Source: Eledone cirrhosa
Taxonomy: Eukaryota
Direction: 5' to 3'
Length of the DNA: 64,000 bases
NCBI GenBank assembly: GCA_964016885.1
Contig: OZ024741.1
Location: 98,208,001 to 98,272,000, forward strand
Positions 10,133-44,727 of the stretch are shown piece by piece (the stretch's first letter is position 1; each line of letters starts with the position of its first letter). The notes beneath the pieces were generated by a model. That model had not been told where the DNA came from, did no database searches, and worked only from the letters and a program-made list of their open reading frames with translations. The translations under genes were made by a program, and so were the position numbers.

Positions 10133-10678
10133 TTATAAATATAAGCTATCGCCGTATTTTGACTAAAGAAATTAAAGAAAATTATTTAGCCTGATAGTGG
10201 GGTTAAGAACCCTCGGAGAAATGGAAAAAGATGAGTATTGACGTACATGGGAGTCGAACCCACATATTTGGTTATCCAGACCACTGTGCTACCATTACAC
10301 CAACACATCACCCGTCTTCCTCCATTCAAATTAGAAGCTATAATCTTAGCAACTGTAAATGTCAAGTAAGAATATTTTCGAAACAGCGAGCAAGTATTCT
10401 TACTTGACATTTACAGTTGCTAAGATTATAGCTTCTAATTTGAATGGAGGAAGACGGGTGATGTGTTGGTCTAATGGTAGCACAGTGGTCTGTATAACCA
10501 AAGATGTGAGTTCGACTCCCATGTACGTCAATACTCATCTTCTTTTCCATTTCTCCGAGGGTTCTTAACACCACTGTCAGGCTAAATAATTTTCTTTAAT
10601 TTCTTTAGTCAAAATACGGCGATAGCTTACATTTATAATTTCAAACTCGCTTGCTGTTTCGAAAATATTCTTACTTGA
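10133..10678. mobile_element. Fold-back element with about 240-bp arms containing a tRNA-like segment
   Basis: 10133-10374 is the reverse complement of 10395-10638; A box TGGTCTAATGG and B box GAGTTCGACTC at about 10456-10530; the loop sequence is re-copied in inverted form at 10646-10678; TA runs on both sides. Confidence 0.8.
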
Positions 10679-19898: not shown

Positions 19899-20897
19899 GT
19901 TTTACTTTTTGTGTGATGATATGCCTTTTGCCTAATCTCTCACCCGCCTGTTTACGTCTATTCTGCACTCCTATTAATCATCGTGACAATGGTCGGCAGC
20001 AGAAGAAGCAGCAACGGCAGTAACTTACACTTTTGTGAATGTCATTCCATACTAACTTCCATCTATTTGTCACCATCATAATTTCAACAATAGCACCTCA
20101 CCTCCTACCACGATCAACATTCACACCAGCAACAGCAGCAGCAGAGAAGCAGCAACAACAACAATAACGACGCCCCGACCAATATCTCCGCCAGCACCGT
20201 CATAATAATTTTCTAATCATCATATATCACAACTTATAGCCCTTTTCTTTACCATAGTAACCAAGACATGGAATCGCTCCAAGAAAGGGGTGAGAAAGAG
20301 AGGAGAAAGAGTGAAAGAGGTGAAGATGCATTAATTTTCACACATACCCCTTGTTGTCAAAAGACATTGTTGTTCCTCTCCCCTCTTCCTTTTCCCCATG
20401 ATATCCTGACAACACGAGTTAGAGAACACTCTGATGAAAAATAGACAACAATGACCGCTATTTGAACCCTTAATGTCAAATAATCATGATCGGATTGATT
20501 GCGCTGTTGTAAATTTTCGTTTATTTTATATATTCTCCAAAGTTGAGGACAAATTTTAAGCCCTTTGTTTTGGGTGATCTTCATTGGTTATTGCTCTATT
20601 TTCTTTTAGCATGTCCGGAATCATTGACATACAATCAGAGTCGTTCTACCAGTAACCATACTGTACTTTCGTATAGCTATAACAACAATGTTCTATGTTT
20701 ATGACTTGTTTAAATGCGCTAGGATGTGAATGTTGATTACAGTCCAATCGTTTCGCTCTGCTAGACACTTCATGCATATTACGAAGATTTCTGTCAACAA
20801 AATAGAAACAACAACACTGAAAACCACATTGGACTTATAGAAGGCACACAAGGCTGTGTTCAGTAATTCAGTGACGCTGCGAAATAAAACTAATAAT

Positions 20898-21298
20898 AAT
20901 TGTTTCTACTTTTGACACAAGGCCACCAATTACTCAGTGCATTACTGGTACTTTATTTTATCGACCACGTAAGGATGAAAGGCAAAGTTAACCATGGCGG
21001 GATTTGAACTCAGACCATAAAGGGCCGTAATTCTATGCTGCAAAACATGGTGTCCGACCCTCTACCAATGCTGCCAAACCACCAATAATGGTTTCTTATG
21101 TTGGCACAAGGCTAATGATTTTGGTAGGAGGGGTAAGTCGAGTAAATCGACCTCTGTACATTACTGGTACTTTATTTTATCGACCCCGTAAGGATGAAAG
21201 GCAAAGTTAAATTCGTCGGGATTTGAACTCGGAACGTAAATGGCTATAACAGTATGTCGCAAAGCATATTGTCCGATGCTCTACCGATACTGCCAATA
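20898..21298 (-). mobile_element. Two tandem SINE S1 copies
   Basis: Core repeated at about 20940-21010 and 21160-21230. Confidence 0.85.
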
Positions 21299-29299: not shown

Positions 29300-30660
29300 C
29301 CCAAAGTTCTTCCTGAAGACCTATACTCAAATGCATTCCGGTCGAGACAATCAGGGATTCTGATCTGGTATTTCTAGAGCTATATTATTCTATGTATCCA
29401 TTTTTGAAAGTGTGGATTTATGTGGTGAAAACTGACGCTGGTGTTATTGTTTGGCCCGAACTCAACACTGAGCGAGCAAGTCTAGCCTCAAATGTGATCG
29501 ATCCATGACATTCCGTCTTCTTTTACTTTTTGCAGGTTTAGTGATGTTGACGGTTTAGAGTGGTGCAATTGATTAGTAGGCATATGAGCGTGTATATATT
29601 CATCTCTTGTCTTAACTAGAAACGTAAACATCAATTTAACAGCTGTCCCATATCCAGACAGACGCTGGTTTCCATAATATTTTAAAGGCACTTAACATCA
29701 TGATTTTGGAATATCTTTGGGTTTCTTATTCGTTGCTGGATTTAGAAGTGATTATGTGTTATATGGACTATTAATGAGAAAGAAAATTTCGCATGCGGTA
29801 TTGATACTTTGAGGTTTAGCCGTAGAACTAAACGAAATGATGTCAGCTCCCAGTCTTCTCTTGATTGTTCATCAATAGGATAAAAGTGCTAATGTCGTCA
29901 TTTATAGGTTTCATGGCGTAAAATATAAGATTAGGAGTGACTGACAAATCCAAATCTGGCACGAAACTTTATGTTGCATATCGGTCAAACATAGTCGTTG
30001 TTTCGTGCTAAAGTACTGGCGGCTCTTGACCTTCGTGGGTCAGCTTATGATTAGCTTGCTCATCAGCATGGTTCTGCTATGGCAGATGATTAATTCTATA
30101 GATTTTCAGGAAGTGATTGACCTTTCTTTTTTTATATATTTTTATAGAGAGTTTACGCTGCTTCAGTACGAACGTTTCGGGCGTGATTCGAAATCCATTC
30201 TAACTAACTACCAGGTCATTAAAACGTGGCTGCTGGGCAACATCATAGATGATTTTTTAAATAGATTCCTGTATAATGGGAGAAGTATTCTGTGGAATAT
30301 TATCCACAGGAAGGTATGTAGTGACAATGAAACGTTGGCATTTCATTTGAAACTAATAGAGATTTAATGACCTTCAATGGTTTTAGTTACCTAAATGAAT
30401 GACTGGTTGTATAAAGAATGATCTGGTGTTTGCAGAGCTTCAATTCTAATTATAATTTTCTGATGCCGAGTTAACACTGAACACAGCAATATTGTTTGAA
30501 ACATCGTAAAATGTAGCAACAGAAGATTATAACATCCGATGATAGAACCTGGTCTTTTAACAAAATTTTTATCGAATTTTCAATATTGATTTATATCAAC
30601 GTAAAATCTAAGATTAACAATGCCTTATGGGTTTTTAGAGGACACAGTATCATTGTGATT
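29300..30660 (-). pseudogene. Possible decayed L1/Tx1-type LINE ORF2 remnant
   Basis: Eroded fragments resembling GYWKLN and SPGxDG..E.Y (RIPDCLDRNAFEY); many stops. Confidence 0.3.
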
Positions 30661-30704
30661 CCATATCTTCTGTTCATTTCTATTTCTAGAAGTTAGAATA
30701 TATT

Positions 30705-31167
30705 TGTAGTGACTGAGATGGTCGCTTAGCAACTAGCAGTTGCCTCCCCTTAACAACTCTTCAGAGAGCGGAGGCAATATATATCCGGTCACAGACGCGG
30801 GTTGGCTCACTCTCTTTGGACCGCGGCCATGAACAGACGTGAAAGGATTCGCTCCTAAAAATATTAACCATGCTGGCTTCGTGAGGGACTATGTGAAAAT
30901 GCTCTCCTTCGGATCAAGGACGCCACGATATCTCGACTAATATGCATTCGCTTATTCCTTCGTTATTCCTGCACCGGAGAATATAATTACACTACTTCTA
31001 TTAACCCACAAGGTATTGTTTGAATTGACATTGTACATAATTTATTAAATGTTGCATTTAATAAAGGATCGTTGATTTTTTACTGTTCATCCCCCTTCTG
31101 GAGTCATTTATTTCTACAAAGAAAAACGATGTATTGTCCATTCATCCACAATCATTCGTTTCCTTTA
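30705..31167 (+). repeat. 5' LTR
   Basis: TGTAGTGACTGAG...TTTCCTTTA, with AATAAA inside. Confidence 0.92.
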
Positions 31168-31168
31168 T

Positions 31169-31187
31169 TGGTGACCACGACGTGATT
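31169..31187 (+). other. Primer-binding site (tRNA-Trp)
   Basis: TGGTGACCACGACGTGATT, complementary with one mismatch to the metazoan tRNA-Trp 3' end. Confidence 0.8.
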
Positions 31188-31236
31188 CCAATACGCGGAT
31201 ACTAAAAAAAAAAAATGTTTTCTTTGGGGGTTGAAC

Positions 31237-31267
<31 letters not shown>

Positions 31268-31649
31268 ACTCTTAAATGCAAGCCTTCTACACTGTGGAAA
31301 TTTTTTCTTTCCTGATTTTCACCGTCATTTCCTCATGAAAATGTTTTAAATGGCCGACATTTTCCCGCCATTCTGCGTGTCTTTTTCCTTTCTTCATTCT
31401 GCGTGTCTTCTTCCTTTCCCGCGCACAGTGTATATTCTTCAATCCCACCAATCTGATTGGCTGCATCGTGCCACGTGACGGCGTCTTCACCAAAAGCATT
31501 TTTTTTCTCAACCGGCCATCTTGGATTCTTCTACTGATTTCAATTGAATTCACGTGAACTGATTTCGGAATTCCAGTATAACCTTTTGGTCGTATAGCTG
31601 CTTCAAAGACATAATTCGTCCTTAAAAATTCTTCAAACCTTCGGCAATC

Positions 31650-32579
31650 ATGAATCCACATAATTTGCCGACCTTTGCAGGCGACATCAAATTATTGTTT
31701 TCGCAGCTCGAGTGCTATTTCGATTTGACCCACACCGAAAAACAGCATAAATTGAAGGTGCTTATTAACGGCCTGCCTGTTTCTTTGGCATATTCCGTAA
31801 AGGATGTTATAACGAATTTAGCTGAAGATGTAACCTATGGCTCATTAAAACTAGAAATTCTTCGTAGGAATACTAGGTCTGTGGAGAGCCGTTTTCGGGA
31901 ATTATTGGAGGATGCACAGAAGGGTAACAGAACGCCAACCTCCTATTTGCGACATCTACGTGAGCTGAGCGACTCCCAAGGAATTGATACATTCTTCATT
32001 AAACAGCTATTTTTTTCCCGTTTACCGCCAAGTGCGCAAATGGTCTTGGTCAATAATTTGGAGAGGGAGTCGTTAGATCAACTTGCCGCCTCCGCGGATA
32101 AAATACTAGAGGTGGACTCTAACAGCAGTCGGCATAATCCTTGTATGGCTTCTTCTTCTGTTCCTCCACGCAATTCTTCTGTGGTCGACAGCAAACTGTT
32201 GGAAATGATCGAAGCGCTCACCAAAAAAGTGGAGGATTTGACCGTACAACATAGAGATCCTTCTCAACGTTTAAGGTACCGTTCGCCTCCGTCTGCTATT
32301 CCTCGAAACCGCTACGAGTACCGTTCGCCACCGTCTTCTGTGCCTCGCCAACACTACACTTCAGGCAGCAGTAATTCTTCTATTTGTTGGTTAAATGTTA
32401 ACTTTGGCAGTCGGGCGCAGCGCTGTCGGGCGCCTTGTAACTATAGGAGTTCGGAAAACGCAAAGCAGAGCCACGAGGGGCGGCTAGTGAACTCCTGGGA
32501 AAATCGACCGAACCGCCATCTTTTCGTATACGACCTGCGGTCGAAAAACTTTTCCTTGTCGATACTGGCGCGTCGCTGA
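31650..32579 (+). CDS. gag: Gypsy Gag, 309-aa ORF
   Basis: LPTF..DIKLLFSQLECYF, GNRTPTSYLRHLREL, LFFSRLP and degenerate knuckle CWLNVNFGSRAQRCRAPC. Confidence 0.8.
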   Translation: MNPHNLPTFAGDIKLLFSQLECYFDLTHTEKQHKLKVLINGLPVSLAYSVKDVITNLAEDVTYGSLKLEILRRNTRSVESRFRELLEDAQKGNRTPTSYLRHLRELSDSQGIDTFFIKQLFFSRLPPSAQMVLVNNLERESLDQLAASADKILEVDSNSSRHNPCMASSSVPPRNSSVVDSKLLEMIEALTKKVEDLTVQHRDPSQRLRYRSPPSAIPRNRYEYRSPPSSVPRQHYTSGSSNSSICWLNVNFGSRAQRCRAPCNYRSSENAKQSHEGRLVNSWENRPNRHLFVYDLRSKNFSLSILARR

Positions 32580-33082
32580 GTATTTGGCCAGTCAGTTATC
32601 TCAAAAAAAACCCATCTGAATCAAATATCAATTTACGAGCAGTCAACCACACGGCCATTCGAACGTATGGGCAAATTTCGCTTCCTCTTCGGTTTAAAAA
32701 TTTGCGTCGTGAATTGAAGTGGAAGTTTACTATCGCCGACTTGCCATATGCCATTTTGGGAGCGGATTTCCTCCACCATTTTCCCTTGTCGATTGACATC
32801 CGCAGACAACGACTTTTTTATGCTAATACAGGCCTATCGTTCGAGGGTACACAGCCGGAGATCGCCACAGTAAGCCCTACTTTTTTCTTGGCTGAAGTGG
32901 GCAACCAGTATCACAGTTTGTTAAAATCATTCCCACAGCTGACGCAAGGAAGATTACGAATTGCTAGTCCGGATCATGTGATTGATCATTTTATATCCAG
33001 TACAGGTCCACCTGTTTTCTCACGTCCTCGAAGATTATCTGCAGAGAAGTTGAAAGCTGCACGTCTTGAATTCGACCACATG
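32510..33082 (+). pseudogene. pol: Gypsy protease and truncated RT N-terminus
   Basis: FLVDTGAS in a shifted frame, AILGADFL, GPPVFSRPRRLSAEKLKAARLEFDHM, then truncated. Confidence 0.85.
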
Positions 33083-33161
33083 ATCCGGACTAGCAATCCG
33101 TAATCTTCCTTGCGTCAGCTGTGGGAATGATTTTAACAAACTGTGATACTGGTTGCCCACT

Positions 33162-33303
33162 AAATAACGACGCGGGACTCTGTCGAGGCCCCGCGGTCGG
33201 AATGAGTACACTTCAAATCCGTTAACGAGGATCGACCGGAGGGCAAGTCTGGTGCCAGTAGCCGCGGTAATTCCAGCTCCGGTAGCGTATATTAAAATTG
33301 TTG
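33162..33303 (+). rRNA. 18S rRNA fragment of about 140 bp captured inside the LTR element (not a functional gene)
   Basis: GGAATGAGTACACTT..AACGAGGATC..GGAGGGCAAGTCTGGTGCCAGTAGCCGCGGTAATTCCAGCTCC..TAGCGTATATTAAA matches the universal eukaryotic SSU 530-loop region. Confidence 0.93.
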
Positions 33304-33392
33304 ATACATGCTTCCACATTTTGTAAACGACCTTGTGGGTCCTTCGCTTCATCGTTAACGATTTTTCGACAAAAAATCTGCTCCGAGACGAA

Positions 33393-33855
33393 TGTAGTGA
33401 CTGAGATGGTCGCTTAGCAACTAGCAGTTGCCTCCCCTTAACAACTCTTCAGAGAGCGGAGGCAATATACATCCGGTCACAGTCGCGGGTTGGCTCACTC
33501 TCTTTGGACCGCGGACATGAACAGACGTGAAATGATTCGCTTCTAAAAATATTAACCATGCTGGCTTCGTGAGGGACTATGTGAAAATGCCCTCCTTCGG
33601 ATCAAGGACGCCACGATATCTCGACTAATATGCATTAGCTTATTCCTTCGTTATTCCTGCACCGGAGAATATAATTAAACTACTTCTATTAACCCACAAG
33701 GTATTGTTTGAATTGACATTGTACATAATTTATTAAATGTTGCATTTAATAAATGATCGTTGATTTTTTACTGTTCACCCCCCTTCTGGAGTCATTTATT
33801 TCTACAAAGAGAAACGATGTATTGTCCATTCATCCACAATCATTCGTTTCCTTTA
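33393..33855 (+). repeat. 3' LTR
   Basis: Copy of 30705-31167 with a few substitutions. Confidence 0.92.
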
Positions 33856-35191
33856 TATTCATTCATTCTGATCATTTGTCGATAGACATGAACGCTAAAT
33901 AAAGGAAAAATAGATTTCATTGAAGTTTATGACTATACAGAAGTCGCTGAATATTTGGTTTCTTCTGATCTTTGACACGTGCAAACTCTGGGTTCTGGAC
34001 CATTTACTTATAAGTGTGTGAGCATTTACTTACACACACAACACACAACAGACAGGGAGGCATCGCAACAATTTTGTCATACTGTTTCCCTTCCTCGAGC
34101 GGATGAATAATTTGGTAACACAAGACCGGGAGTTACGATTCAAGAAGCTGTTCATTCAATTTTTCTCTTTCTGTTTTTAAACAAAATACATTATTTCCAT
34201 GTATACATTTTATGTGGAATAATCCTTTCATGCATTACAATCCTTACCATTTGTTGACACACATAATCAGTGTATTTTCCTTTCTAAACATGTGTTGTCT
34301 TCTCAAACATGCTAACTGAATATGCTTCGCTGAACAGATGTATTAAAATCAAAAATTGTCATTTGCTTTCACCAAATTGGCTTATAAATAAGGTTCACTA
34401 CTACTGTATAGTTTTAAAATATCCAAGACACCTTGGATCAGCGAAAGCTACACGAGCTCTCTTCCATGTTTACTTTGCGGCGTCTGCCCCCTCCTCCATG
34501 AGAATTTAAGTCATGACATTACGAAGATAGTTTCTCTGATTGAAAGGATTATTTTTTCCACATGGCATATTCTGACAGCGGGATTCTGCTTGTATATATA
34601 TATATATATGTGTGTGTGTGTATATATATATATATATCAAACACACATTTTCACGCGAACACACACACGTTGACGTGTACGCATACACACACACACAGGT
34701 GCATGCTCACATCCACGCACGCACGCACGCGCCCGCAAACAAACAAACAAATATAAACATAGATGTAAAAACGAATGAAAAGAGCACCGATTACTTATCG
34801 TGAAGGCTAAATGTTTTCATAATTTGATTGAGATTTGCATTACGCAATTCAAAGAAGCAAACACGCACGTTTTGGATTCCCACGAGCAGCTCTGTCTGCT
34901 TTAATCATTCTCTTGAAGTATATATATGCCCAACATTTTCAATCATTTAAATATTTAAACCAAACTAACATATTTTGAAAATTGAAATTTGTTCAACCTT
35001 TCGTGAAACTTTTTTATTTAGGGAATTTATCATTGTTGGTTTGAAACTCTGGCATATCGCATATATTAGTTCAATTGCTTGAATCGATTCTCTGCACTTG
35101 TTTTATCTCTCTAGGTGTTTACGTCCCCACATTGTTCGACTATTAAATAGTCAATCCTGCATTATATCAATTTACAATATACTAAAACTCA

Positions 35192-35330
<139 letters not shown>

Positions 35331-35542
35331 CCGTGCGTATATAAGGAATAGGGATAATATTCAACCACTCTCAGACTCGAATCAACATGTTAAAACATAT
35401 CTGAGGAGCTTCCGAATCCAGAGTCAGGTTAGATCATTAATAGATCGTTCCTCGAGCTAATTGACAGTGAAATATATGTAATATGTGATTAAATATTTAT
35501 ATGATGCAGCACTGATTCCTTGTTCAATTATATATATTAATG

Positions 35543-35719
35543 GCCGTATTGGTAGAGGGTCGGACGCCATGCTTTGACGCATAGAGTTACGGCCCTTGGC
35601 ATTCTGAGTTCAAATCCCGCCGAGGTTAACTTTGCCTTTCATCCTTACGGGGTCGATAAAATAAAGTACCAGTAATACACTGGAAAATTGTTGGCCTTGT
35701 GCCTAACGTAGAAACAATT
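35543..35719 (+). mobile_element. tRNA-derived SINE S1
   Basis: B box plus core. Confidence 0.85.
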
Positions 35720-35747
35720 ATATATATTAATACTATATATATATATT

Positions 35748-37689: not shown

Positions 37690-38182
37690 AATTTATTATA
37701 TATTTATAAATTTATAAATTTATAAATTTCTGGTTGGTTGGTTGGTTCCACAACCAGATAGTTGTTTATATATAGTCATAGTTCTTTCGTCACACACTCT
37801 GTGACCTCTTCAGTGACTGGGGATTCCTTTCTTTGTATCTGTGCCTGTCCTTTGTTCTGTCCTACGCCATTTTGTTTCTGTGTGTGTGTTGTGTGCTCAG
37901 TCTGCGCATGCGCCACATCCGGGTGTCTGTGTGTGTTTATGTTCATTTATTTATTTGTTTATTTACATGTTACTGGTTGGTTGTTTGTTCTATGTGTGTG
38001 TGTGTTTTCATTTTGTCCTTAATTGTAAGTTGTGATGTTGCTGTTCCACTCATATTTTCTATTTAATTTTGGTTGTAATTCTTTTATGTTTATTGCCTCT
38101 GTAATTTGTCTAAACATTGCGTCTTTTCTGTGTGTAGATTCTATTTTTATTTCTATGTTCTCTAATTTACCCTTGTGTTCTA
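37690..38182 (-). mobile_element. Penelope-like element 3' fragment (GIY-YIG C-terminus, 3' UTR and HHR)
   Basis: DAMFRQITEAINIKELQPKLNRKYEW parallels DPADRQIREASEIELRRPRLNRKNEW of the element at 57074. Confidence 0.8.
37774..37818 (-). ncRNA. Minimal type-I hammerhead ribozyme, intact core
   Basis: AGTCA-CTGAAGA-G GTCACA GAGTG TGTGAC-GAAA-GAACTA^-TGACT. Confidence 0.85.
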
Positions 38183-38420
38183 TAAAAAGTGAAATATCCA
38201 AATCTTATGTGCTTATCAACAGGAATCCAGTAAAATTAGTACATTCCACCTTCAAACATTTTGAAGGTCTGATTACACGTGGTGTAGCCAGCTATACTAG
38301 CCATCCCGTATTCCCGTACACCACGTGTAATCAGACCTGCAAAATGTTTGAAGGTGGAATGTACTAATTTTACTGGATTCCTGTTAATAAGCACAGAAGA
38401 TTTGGATATTTCACTTTTTA
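38183..38420. repeat. 104-bp inverted repeat with a 30-nt loop
   Basis: 38183-38286 versus 38317-38420, about 3 mismatches. Confidence 0.93.
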
Positions 38421-38810
38421 TTTCAATTTCATTTCGATTCTCTTTATTTTTCAATTCATGTACCATCGTTGCGAAACATATTTGGGTTTTGAAGTTCAAA
38501 TTCATCTACGGAGCGAGTTTGGATTTTGAAATTTAAATTTGTCCAGGAATCACGGCTTTTGCCAATATAAGCTTGTCTTTATTGACTTATATCGAGACAG
38601 ACAAATTGTATTCACTTTAATTAGTTTATTTCATGCTAGCTAACTTTGTCTGTTACAATACAAACACGTTTGCGTTTATCATATATATTAATATATAACT
38701 TATATTTCACTGCTCAGAAATGCCTCTTTCTTTGAGCTGATTAATTGTAAACGACTATTAGTTTAATCTCTAAATATAATATAGTATTGTATATATACAT
38801 GTATATATAT

Positions 38811-40792: not shown

Positions 40793-40978
40793 GTGGATTG
40801 GCATTATCGGTAGATGGTCGGGCGCCATGCTTTGACGCATAGAGTTACGGTCCTTGCCATTCTGAGTTCAAATCCCGCCGAGGTTAACTTTGCCTTTCAT
40901 CCTTACGGGGTGGATAAAATAAAGTACCAGTAATACACTAGGATAATTGCTGGCCTTGTGCTAAAAGTAGAAACAATT
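40793..40978 (+). mobile_element. tRNA-derived SINE S1
   Basis: B box plus core. Confidence 0.85.
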
Positions 40979-41464
40979 ATATATACAATTCTGGAGATTA
41001 TTCTTTTTAAAGTTCGATGTATTGAATGAAGAGTAGAAAATGTTCTGCCGAGTCAATCAATGAGACTACATTTGATTGCTTAGCAAGTATTGGCTAAATA
41101 ATTATAATAGTCAGCAAAGAATTTGCCCTATCCTTTAACATTATTAAAAAATACTTAATATTGTCCGATCGATTTCATCTGGTTGAGATGTTTTCGACTT
41201 CATAGACTAGTAGCCTATGTGTCTCCTTTTTTCTGGATAATTAGTAACATACATAAAAAAGAGTGACACTCTTCAGTCATGAATGTCCATGGGTTTTGCA
41301 ACTAGTAAGTTCACCTCTGAAATATAAACCCGGGTAAGGTGTTTTTGTGGAGGACCAGCAATTGCCCATCCATGCCAGTCTCCCATCTCCACGCATTGAC
41401 CGATCCATAATCTAACTCACAACCTCCTCCCTATCGTGAAACCAACTCTCTAAATGCTAAACCA

Positions 41465-44459: not shown

Positions 44460-44643
44460 GTGGATTGGCAGTTTCGGTAGAGGGTCGAACGCCATGCTTT
44501 GAAGCATAGAGTTACGTCCCTTTATGATCTGAGTTCAAATCCAGCCGAGGTTAACTTTGCCTTTCATCCTTACGGGGTCGATAAAATACAGTACCAGTAA
44601 TAGACAGAGTAATTGCTGACCTTGTGCCAAAAGAAGAAACAAT
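44460..44643 (+). mobile_element. tRNA-derived SINE S1
   Basis: B box plus core. Confidence 0.85.
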
Positions 44644-44727
44644 TATATATAAAGGGAACTGATGAGAGGTAAACGCACATACACACAAACACACGGAAAC
44701 ACATACATACATATATATATATATACA

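What the first reader, a model, noticed from the sequence alone, without database searches (positions are those of the whole stretch)
32896..33392. Gypsy element whose pol is replaced by an inverted self-copy and a captured 18S rRNA fragment
Seen: pol stops at FDHM and folds back through a CACATG microhomology into an 85-bp inverted copy (33077-33161 versus 32896-32980), then about 140 bp of sense 18S rRNA, about 90 bp of unassigned sequence, and the 3' LTR. There is no obvious polypurine tract, yet both LTRs and the TATT TSD are intact. Inference: serial RT template switches, including one onto co-packaged rRNA, gave a chimera that still integrated; later double-strand-break repair with RNA-templated filler is the alternative.
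Basis: partly seen in the sequence, partly recalled or inferred. Interest (0 to 1): 0.72.

Follow-up and report, generated by a model that had tools for sequence, protein, structure and literature searches.

The report
Broken retrotransposon patched with ribosomal DNA
A dead jumping-gene copy has lost 2.9 kb of its enzyme gene and carries in its place a short reversed copy of itself and a 142-base piece of the ribosomal RNA gene; no second copy turned up, and it is most likely the scar of a repaired DNA break, not a new kind of mobile element.

Summary
The anatomy is real. A CsRn1-like Ty3/gypsy copy (463-bp LTRs, 11 differences, TATT target duplication) has lost 2,860 bp of pol. The gap holds an 85-bp inverted self-copy and 142 bp of sense host 18S. 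One correction: the 'unassigned' 33304-33392 is the element's own 3' end, and the weak polypurine tract is a subfamily trait. No second copy of any junction was found, and 0 of 59 other family copies hold rRNA sequence, so a mobile rRNA-carrying subfamily is not supported. Both 6-nt microhomologies extend imperfectly on their left side only (10/12 and 8/9). That points to left-to-right (plus-strand) synthesis on DNA templates and against the simple minus-strand switch onto rRNA. Best reading (0.58): fold-back synthesis at a chromosomal break, capture of an rDNA or rRNA-cDNA piece, then end joining, as shown in yeast. Reverse-transcription error at birth remains open (0.30), because the filler is about as old as the LTRs. 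Read support for the three inner junctions is untested. Ordinary one-off; interest low.

The parts
30701..30704 (.). 5' target-site duplication TATT
   Evidence: sequence; 4-bp TSDs in relatives
30705..31167 (+). 5' LTR, 463 bp
   Evidence: LTR end fixed by relatives' TSDs; flank-LTR junction held by contigs of runs X1-X3
31169..31186 (+). primer-binding site of tRNA-Trp type, one substitution against relatives
   Evidence: published CsRn1-clade PBS (PMC2582038)
31650..32579 (+). gag (DUF7041); CHCC-spaced knuckle without its His in this copy
32447..33082 (+). protease and start of pol; single-base indels near 32494 and 32548; ends at the fold-back junction
32896..32980 (+). source of the inverted copy
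33077..33082 (.). junction J0: 6-nt exact inverted microhomology, 10 of 12 with the family state of the source (9 of 12 today)
33077..33161 (-). inverted self-copy, 85 bp (79 new bases), one private substitution at 33098
33161..33162 (.). junction J1: no microhomology
33162..33303 (+). host 18S rDNA piece, sense, nt 672-813, two substitutions against the array (33196, 33259)
33295..33303 (.). junction J2: 6-nt exact microhomology (33298-33303), 8 of 9 with the rDNA base kept at the mismatch; next to the family's T tract
33304..33392 (+). element's own 3' internal end with the short purine stretch before the LTR
33393..33855 (+). 3' LTR, 463 bp
33856..33859 (.). 3' target-site duplication TATT
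   Evidence: sequence; loose end of an X3 contig reads this flank

Best explanation
This is a single CsRn1-like Ty3/gypsy copy in which 2,860 bp of pol are replaced by an inverted self-copy and an 18S piece, most likely through repair of a chromosomal break after a normal insertion. Shown: the deletion, the three junctions and their microhomologies, common origin of the two LTRs, no second copy. Inferred steps: (1) a break or collapsed fork with loss of most of pol; (2) the left 3' end, ending at 33082, folded back onto a 10-of-12 inverted match about 95 nt upstream and was extended 79 nt; (3) the released strand was joined without homology to, or jumped onto, a DNA form of 18S (an rDNA fragment or a cDNA of rRNA); (4) the 18S end annealed to the right-hand end through 8 of 9 bases and the gap was sealed. 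The event would have come fairly soon after insertion. The copy is non-coding and has probably never moved since. Whether the 18S donor was genomic rDNA or reverse-transcribed rRNA is unresolved (about even).
For: Polarity: at J0 the pairing extends on the top-strand primer side only (4 of the next 6 with the family state; 271 of 6427 random 6-nt matches do so, 4.2%; 1 of 6 on the other side). At J2 it also extends leftward and the product keeps the rDNA base at the mismatch (145 of 2537, 5.7%). The inverted piece copies upstream sequence, the natural product of a left 3' end. The layout (imperfect inverted microhomology with a spacer, short synthesis, homology-free join) matches yeast foldback inversions at breaks, 2 to about 150 bp (PMC11724301, passages). 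rDNA and cDNA capture at breaks is shown in yeast and mouse (PMC11372161; PMC4516963; passages). In this family L026 has an 830-bp fold-back with 0 arm mismatches against 8 of 434 between its LTRs (Fisher p 2e-4), so that fold-back postdates its insertion if it is real. Short 18S pieces also lie outside any family copy (L006, L085; 2 of 24 rDNA-hit loci).
Against: The filler is as old as the insertion within error: 3 substitutions over 294 lineage-sites against 3.5 expected at LTR age, likelihood ratio 1.5 for formation at birth. The piece is sense and lies in mature rRNA (48% of the rDNA unit), about a 1-in-4 chance for a random rDNA donor, and its microhomology is at the end where reverse transcription of rRNA would begin. 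Six-nt microhomologies with replaced internal ORF and intact LTRs are the signature of LTR-mediated retroposition (PMC5131818, passages). The polarity test was chosen after seeing the junctions, rests on 2-4 extra bases, and is also met by plus-strand jumps in a particle. L026 is one case and a perfect palindrome may be an assembly error or homogenised.
Confidence: 0.58

Rival explanations
1. The chimera arose during reverse transcription in the particle and integrated as such. A minus strand switched from the 3' end of the element onto packaged 18S rRNA (or an 18S cDNA was present); a plus strand made on a second genome folded back at 33082, jumped end-to-end onto the 18S cDNA and ran on to the 3' LTR.
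For: Age compatible with birth. Sense, mature rRNA donor. Both LTRs share three rare variants, so they come from one progenitor, and the TSD is intact. J2 lies beside a T tract, where the similarity to another LTR subfamily also ends. Median 6-bp microsimilarity and multi-switch chimeras in fly LTR retrocopies (PMC5131818); patch repair with packaged host RNA in retroviruses (PMC4997597, passages).
Against: A plain minus-strand series cannot make the inverted piece: it needs a minus-sense template of a region not yet copied. A minus-strand primer at J2 would leave the element's base at the mismatch, and the product has the rDNA base. The plus-strand version needs about 100 bp of duplex to open and two half-molecules to be joined. 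0 of 59 other copies hold rRNA. Intact LTRs and TSD are expected under both routes.
Confidence: 0.3
2. The junctions are a sequencing or assembly chimera (fold-back read plus rDNA).
For: Single copy; fold-backs and rDNA are common sources of library chimeras (own knowledge).
Against: The inverted copy differs from its source at 33098, and the 18S piece differs from 24 of 24 rDNA loci at 33259 and from 23 of 24 at 33196. That is the divergence expected of aged genomic DNA, not of a fresh chimera. Both flanks, LTRs and the TSD are coherent.
Confidence: 0.06
3. It is a member of a mobile non-autonomous subfamily that carries an 18S piece.
For: LTRs, PBS and the 3' end needed in cis are present; fly LTR retrocopies do re-transpose (PMC5131818).
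Against: Only this locus spans any junction in four searches (40 of 389, 40 of 79, 40 of 118 and 40 of 71 candidates scored). PBS and purine stretch carry substitutions.
Confidence: 0.04

Closest known systems
Foldback inversions and templated insertions at double-strand breaks in yeast (PMC11724301; PMC11372161; passages read)
   Same: Imperfect inverted microhomology with a spacer primes short synthesis; the new strand is joined with little or no homology; rDNA and cDNA pieces are captured; complex insertions occur.
   Different: Here a natural germ-line event in an animal, with a 2.9-kb deletion, a roughly 95-nt loop (41 nt in the yeast case) and fold-back plus rDNA piece in one scar; the break is inferred, not induced.
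LTR-mediated retroposition in animals (PMC5131818; passages read)
   Same: Internal ORF replaced by host sequence, both LTRs kept, 6-nt microsimilarity at junctions.
   Different: Donor is rRNA rather than mRNA, so no lost intron proves an RNA step; one junction is blunt; an inverted self-copy is present (the term search found no inversion passage in that paper's main text); no re-transposition.
RT-product-mediated break repair in mouse zygotes (PMC4516963; passages read)
   Same: Captured cDNA with microhomology at one end and end joining at the other.
   Different: No rRNA donor mentioned in its main text; induced breaks.
rRNA-bearing mobile elements: Cassandra and Ajax TRIMs (5S), SINE28 (PMC10946416; section 11 read whole)
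   Same: rRNA-derived sequence inside a retroelement.
   Different: Those are amplified families, mostly using the 5S promoter; this is one copy with an internal 18S scrap that has no promoter. The review's table lists no 18S case.
CsRn1 clade of Ty3/gypsy elements (PMC2582038; passages read)
   Same: tRNA-Trp-type PBS, 4-bp TSD, CHCC knuckle in the family, PR-RT-RH-IN order in a relative.
   Different: This LTR subfamily has only a short purine stretch; RT phylogeny not tested.

Membership tests
Ty3/gypsy LTR retrotransposon | Direct LTRs with TSD and PBS | tested here: met
Ty3/gypsy LTR retrotransposon | Domain order PR-RT-RNase H-IN | tested here: met
   PR in the window copy; RT, RNase H, IN in that order in relative L030; deleted in this copy
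CsRn1 clade | Gag knuckle C-x2-H-x9-C-x3-C | tested here: met
   33 of 59 relatives have it in a sense frame; the window copy keeps the spacing but not the His
CsRn1 clade | tRNA-Trp PBS and 4-bp TSD | tested here: met
   against the PBS and TSD given in PMC2582038; the host tRNA itself was not matched
CsRn1 clade | Polypurine tract before the 3' LTR | tested here: inconclusive
   only an 8-nt purine-rich stretch in this subfamily; a classic tract in another LTR subfamily with the same pol (L036)
CsRn1 clade | RT groups with CsRn1 in a tree | not tested
   no reference RT sequences fetched
LTR-mediated retrocopy | Internal ORF replaced, both LTRs present, microsimilarity at switch points | tested here: met
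   2 of 3 junctions have 6 nt
LTR-mediated retrocopy | Donor shown to be RNA, copied in the minus-strand direction | tested here: inconclusive
   sense and mature rRNA but junction polarity points to top-strand synthesis; rRNA has no introns to lose
LTR-mediated retrocopy | Chimera present at integration | tested here: inconclusive
   likelihood ratio 1.5
Foldback/templated insertion at a DNA break | Imperfect inverted microhomology next to the end, short synthesis, homology-poor join | tested here: met
   against PMC11724301
Foldback/templated insertion at a DNA break | Event postdates insertion (unrearranged allele at the same site) | not testable with these tools
   no second haplotype or relative genome held
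rRNA-bearing non-autonomous family (Cassandra/Ajax/SINE28-like) | Several dispersed copies with the same rRNA module | tested here: not met
   one locus; 0 of 59 relatives

The most novel reading that the evidence does not exclude
A Ty3/gypsy particle packaged 18S rRNA, reverse-transcribed it, and built one integration-competent DNA by serial plus-strand jumps: a fold-back onto itself, an end-to-end jump onto the 18S cDNA, and a return to the element's 3' end. It would be a fossil of rRNA capture by an LTR reverse transcriptase in an animal germ line, the founding step for an 18S-bearing non-autonomous element, which my searches did not find described.
Probability: 0.3. Interest if true: 0.5.

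Novelty: new member of a known kind. Interest (0 to 1): 0.25.

Why it matters
As it stands, little: one dead copy with a complex repair scar. Its use is as a clean natural example in which fold-back synthesis, capture of ribosomal sequence and end joining can be read from three junctions. It also gives a cheap test, the side on which imperfect microhomology extends, for telling break repair from reverse-transcriptase switching. That matters because host pieces inside LTR elements are usually credited to reverse transcriptase. If a genome-wide survey showed sense-biased rRNA pieces in LTR elements, the rival reading would give a route by which rRNA-bearing elements are born.

Tried and rejected
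Read support: contigs of runs X1-X4 were laid on 30500-33225. X1-X3 (one sample, possibly the assembled one) hold the 5' flank-LTR junction with no differences at depth 5.6-8.8. No contig of theirs covers 33139-33225, the depth of the bin 33048-33138 is accounted for by family contigs that end at 33082, and no joint is listed. This is uninformative: the same contigs also lack this copy's private bases at 32986 and 32989 and the host rDNA itself. X4 matches only through rRNA. J2 was not examined with reads.

Donor copy: dispersed rDNA locus L002 shares the change at 33196, but it ranked first for that reason among hundreds of candidates. By my hand estimate, some copy among the 24 would share one of the two changes about a third of the time, so it is not taken as the donor.

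Recombinant of two parents: rejected, since both LTRs share three rare variants and the 11 differences split 5 and 6 (one site is polymorphic in relatives).

Other 'inversions' in relatives: L027, L067, L046, L053 are 180-bp insertions of a common repeat. L041 and L051 share an old inverted 5' segment. Only L026 is a fold-back.

Folding 32965-33082 as DNA does not predict the J0 stem as the minimum-energy structure, so the fold-back would be transient. snoRNA hits are below threshold.

Papers: PMC2168973 and PMC114779 were not held; PMC4189041 gave nothing relevant. No supplements were read; those of PMC5131818 might list rRNA or inverted cases.

Full report
Observation. The element runs from 30705 to 33855. 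Its LTRs are 463 bp and differ at 11 sites. Relatives fix the LTR end and show 4-bp target duplications, so TATT at 30701-30704 and 33856-33859 is the true TSD. A tRNA-Trp-type primer site follows the 5' LTR, with one substitution against relatives (PBS as given in PMC2582038, passages). Gag carries DUF7041 and the next frame a retroviral protease. The frame ends at FDHM, 33082. Bases 33077-33161 are the reverse complement of 32896-32980 with one mismatch. Bases 33162-33303 match Rfam SSU_eukarya (E 4e-29) and host rDNA at 98.6%, host 18S nt 672-813, sense to the element. Against the natural copy L025, 2,860 bp are missing; in relative L030 the pol region holds RT, RNase H and integrase. The short purine stretch is a subfamily trait (14 of 15), with two substitutions in this copy.

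Family. The tRNA-Trp-type PBS, 4-bp TSD and C-x2-H-x9-C-x3-C knuckle (33 of 59 relatives) match the CsRn1 clade as described in PMC2582038. The lead to that clade came from earlier scan notes; no RT tree was made. The genome is 3.0 Gb with a 2.86-kb 18S in a 19.55-kb rDNA unit.

Copy number. Four searches of the genome, one across all three junctions and one at each, found only this locus spanning any junction (40 candidates scored in each, of 389, 79, 118 and 71). I fetched 59 other family loci: all 15 family rows, 35 new ones, and 9 of 10 new ones. None has rRNA sequence inside (L036's hits are to the rDNA spacer). None of 24 rDNA-hit loci has family sequence in the fetched flanks. The sample favours copies that keep the queried regions.

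Junctions. J0 has 6 nt of exact inverted microhomology. With the base that relatives have at 32986 (private in this copy) the match is 10 of 12, and 9 of 12 as the sequence now stands; the extra pairing is all on the left. J1 is blunt. J2 has 6 nt exact and 8 of 9, again extending left, and the product keeps the rDNA base at the mismatch. Random joins reach 6 nt in 0.12-0.16% of trials. Given 6 nt, the extensions occur on a named side in 4.2% (271 of 6427) and 5.7% (145 of 2537) of cases. Imperfect pairing is kept on the primer's side of a switch (inference from polymerase logic), so both junctions point to a top strand growing left to right. A top strand that writes sense 18S reads the antisense strand, which is DNA: rDNA or a cDNA. 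This test is post hoc and rests on few bases; annealing of two DNA ends gives the same pattern at J2.

Age. The 11 LTR differences split 5 in the 5' and 6 in the 3' LTR, and both LTRs share three variants rare among the 13 closest LTRs, so they stem from one integration. The rate is 1.2% per lineage. The filler has 3 substitutions (33098, 33196, 33259) over 294 lineage-sites, against 3.5 expected if it is as old as the LTRs. The likelihood ratio is 1.5 for birth over a uniform later time, and the 5% bound is 0.28 of the element's age. The event is old, which argues against an artefact, but birth and early repair cannot be told apart.

Background in this genome. L026 has an 830-bp fold-back centred on an A/T tract, with no arm mismatch, while its LTRs differ at 8 of 434 sites. 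If real, it arose after insertion. Short 18S pieces lie outside family copies: 394 bp at 100% in a TA repeat (L006) and 289 bp at 88.6% (L085). So both ingredients occur here without capture by this family.

Mechanism. Best reading (0.58): a break after insertion, fold-back extension of the left end by 79 nt, blunt joining to a DNA form of 18S, and microhomology annealing to the right end. Yeast breaks give foldback inversions from a 10-bp imperfect inverted match with a 41-nt spacer, followed by end joining (PMC11724301, passages), and capture rDNA and cDNA (PMC11372161, passages). Mouse zygotes capture cDNA with one-sided microhomology (PMC4516963, passages). Rival (0.30): formation in the particle. 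For it speak the age, the sense orientation and mature-rRNA origin (48% of the unit), the T tract at J2, the 6-bp microsimilarity of fly LTR retrocopies (PMC5131818, passages) and patch repair by packaged host RNA (PMC4997597, passages). Against it, a minus-strand series lacks a template for the inverted piece, and the polarity requires plus-strand jumps between two half-molecules. Artefact 0.06, mobile subfamily 0.04.

Reads. Contigs of one sample hold the insertion's flank junctions. The inner junctions remain untested; see Tried and rejected.

Novelty. Known rRNA-bearing elements are amplified families built mostly on 5S (PMC10946416, section 11 read whole). A search for 18S rRNA, LTR retrotransposon, captured and rRNA fragment returned 0 papers; searches listed no matching case (listings and abstract starts only). 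The library lacks most subscription papers. The scan's notes hold no same finding. A single, dead copy made by known processes is a new instance of a known kind. Interest 0.25.

Noticed in passing
L026:893-2557 in element orientation (G000:C3:296237100-296244600, minus strand): Family copy with an 830-bp perfect fold-back of 5' UTR and gag centred on an A/T tract, far younger than its LTRs; real late fold-back or assembly error.
   Followed up: partly
L006:1373-1766: 394-bp 18S piece, 100% identical to the array, inside a TA microsatellite; it starts 6 nt from the start of the older 289-bp piece in L085.
   Followed up: partly
L021-L079: One pol is shared by at least three LTR/3'-end types; similarity to one type ends at the T tract next to J2, and that type has a classic polypurine tract (L036).
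   Followed up: partly
L041:1163-1289 and L051:1193-1302: A subfamily carries an inverted 110-130-bp segment of the 5' untranslated region in at least two copies, so an inversion has been propagated by transposition.
   Followed up: no
window 10239-10309 (-) and 10460-10530 (+): Two near-identical tRNA-like sequences in divergent orientation 150 bp apart (Rfam tRNA).
   Followed up: no
window 38182-38421: 105-nt inverted repeat, 97% complementary, 30-nt spacer.
   Followed up: no
window 35541-35726, 40799-40984, 44466-44651, 20896-21083: Common repeat of about 185 bp, SINE-like by appearance; also inserted into 4 of 59 family copies.
   Followed up: partly
L080-L082 and L002-L020, L083-L087: 18S of about 2.86 kb in a 19.55-kb unit; many decayed rDNA copies dispersed over at least nine contigs.
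   Followed up: partly
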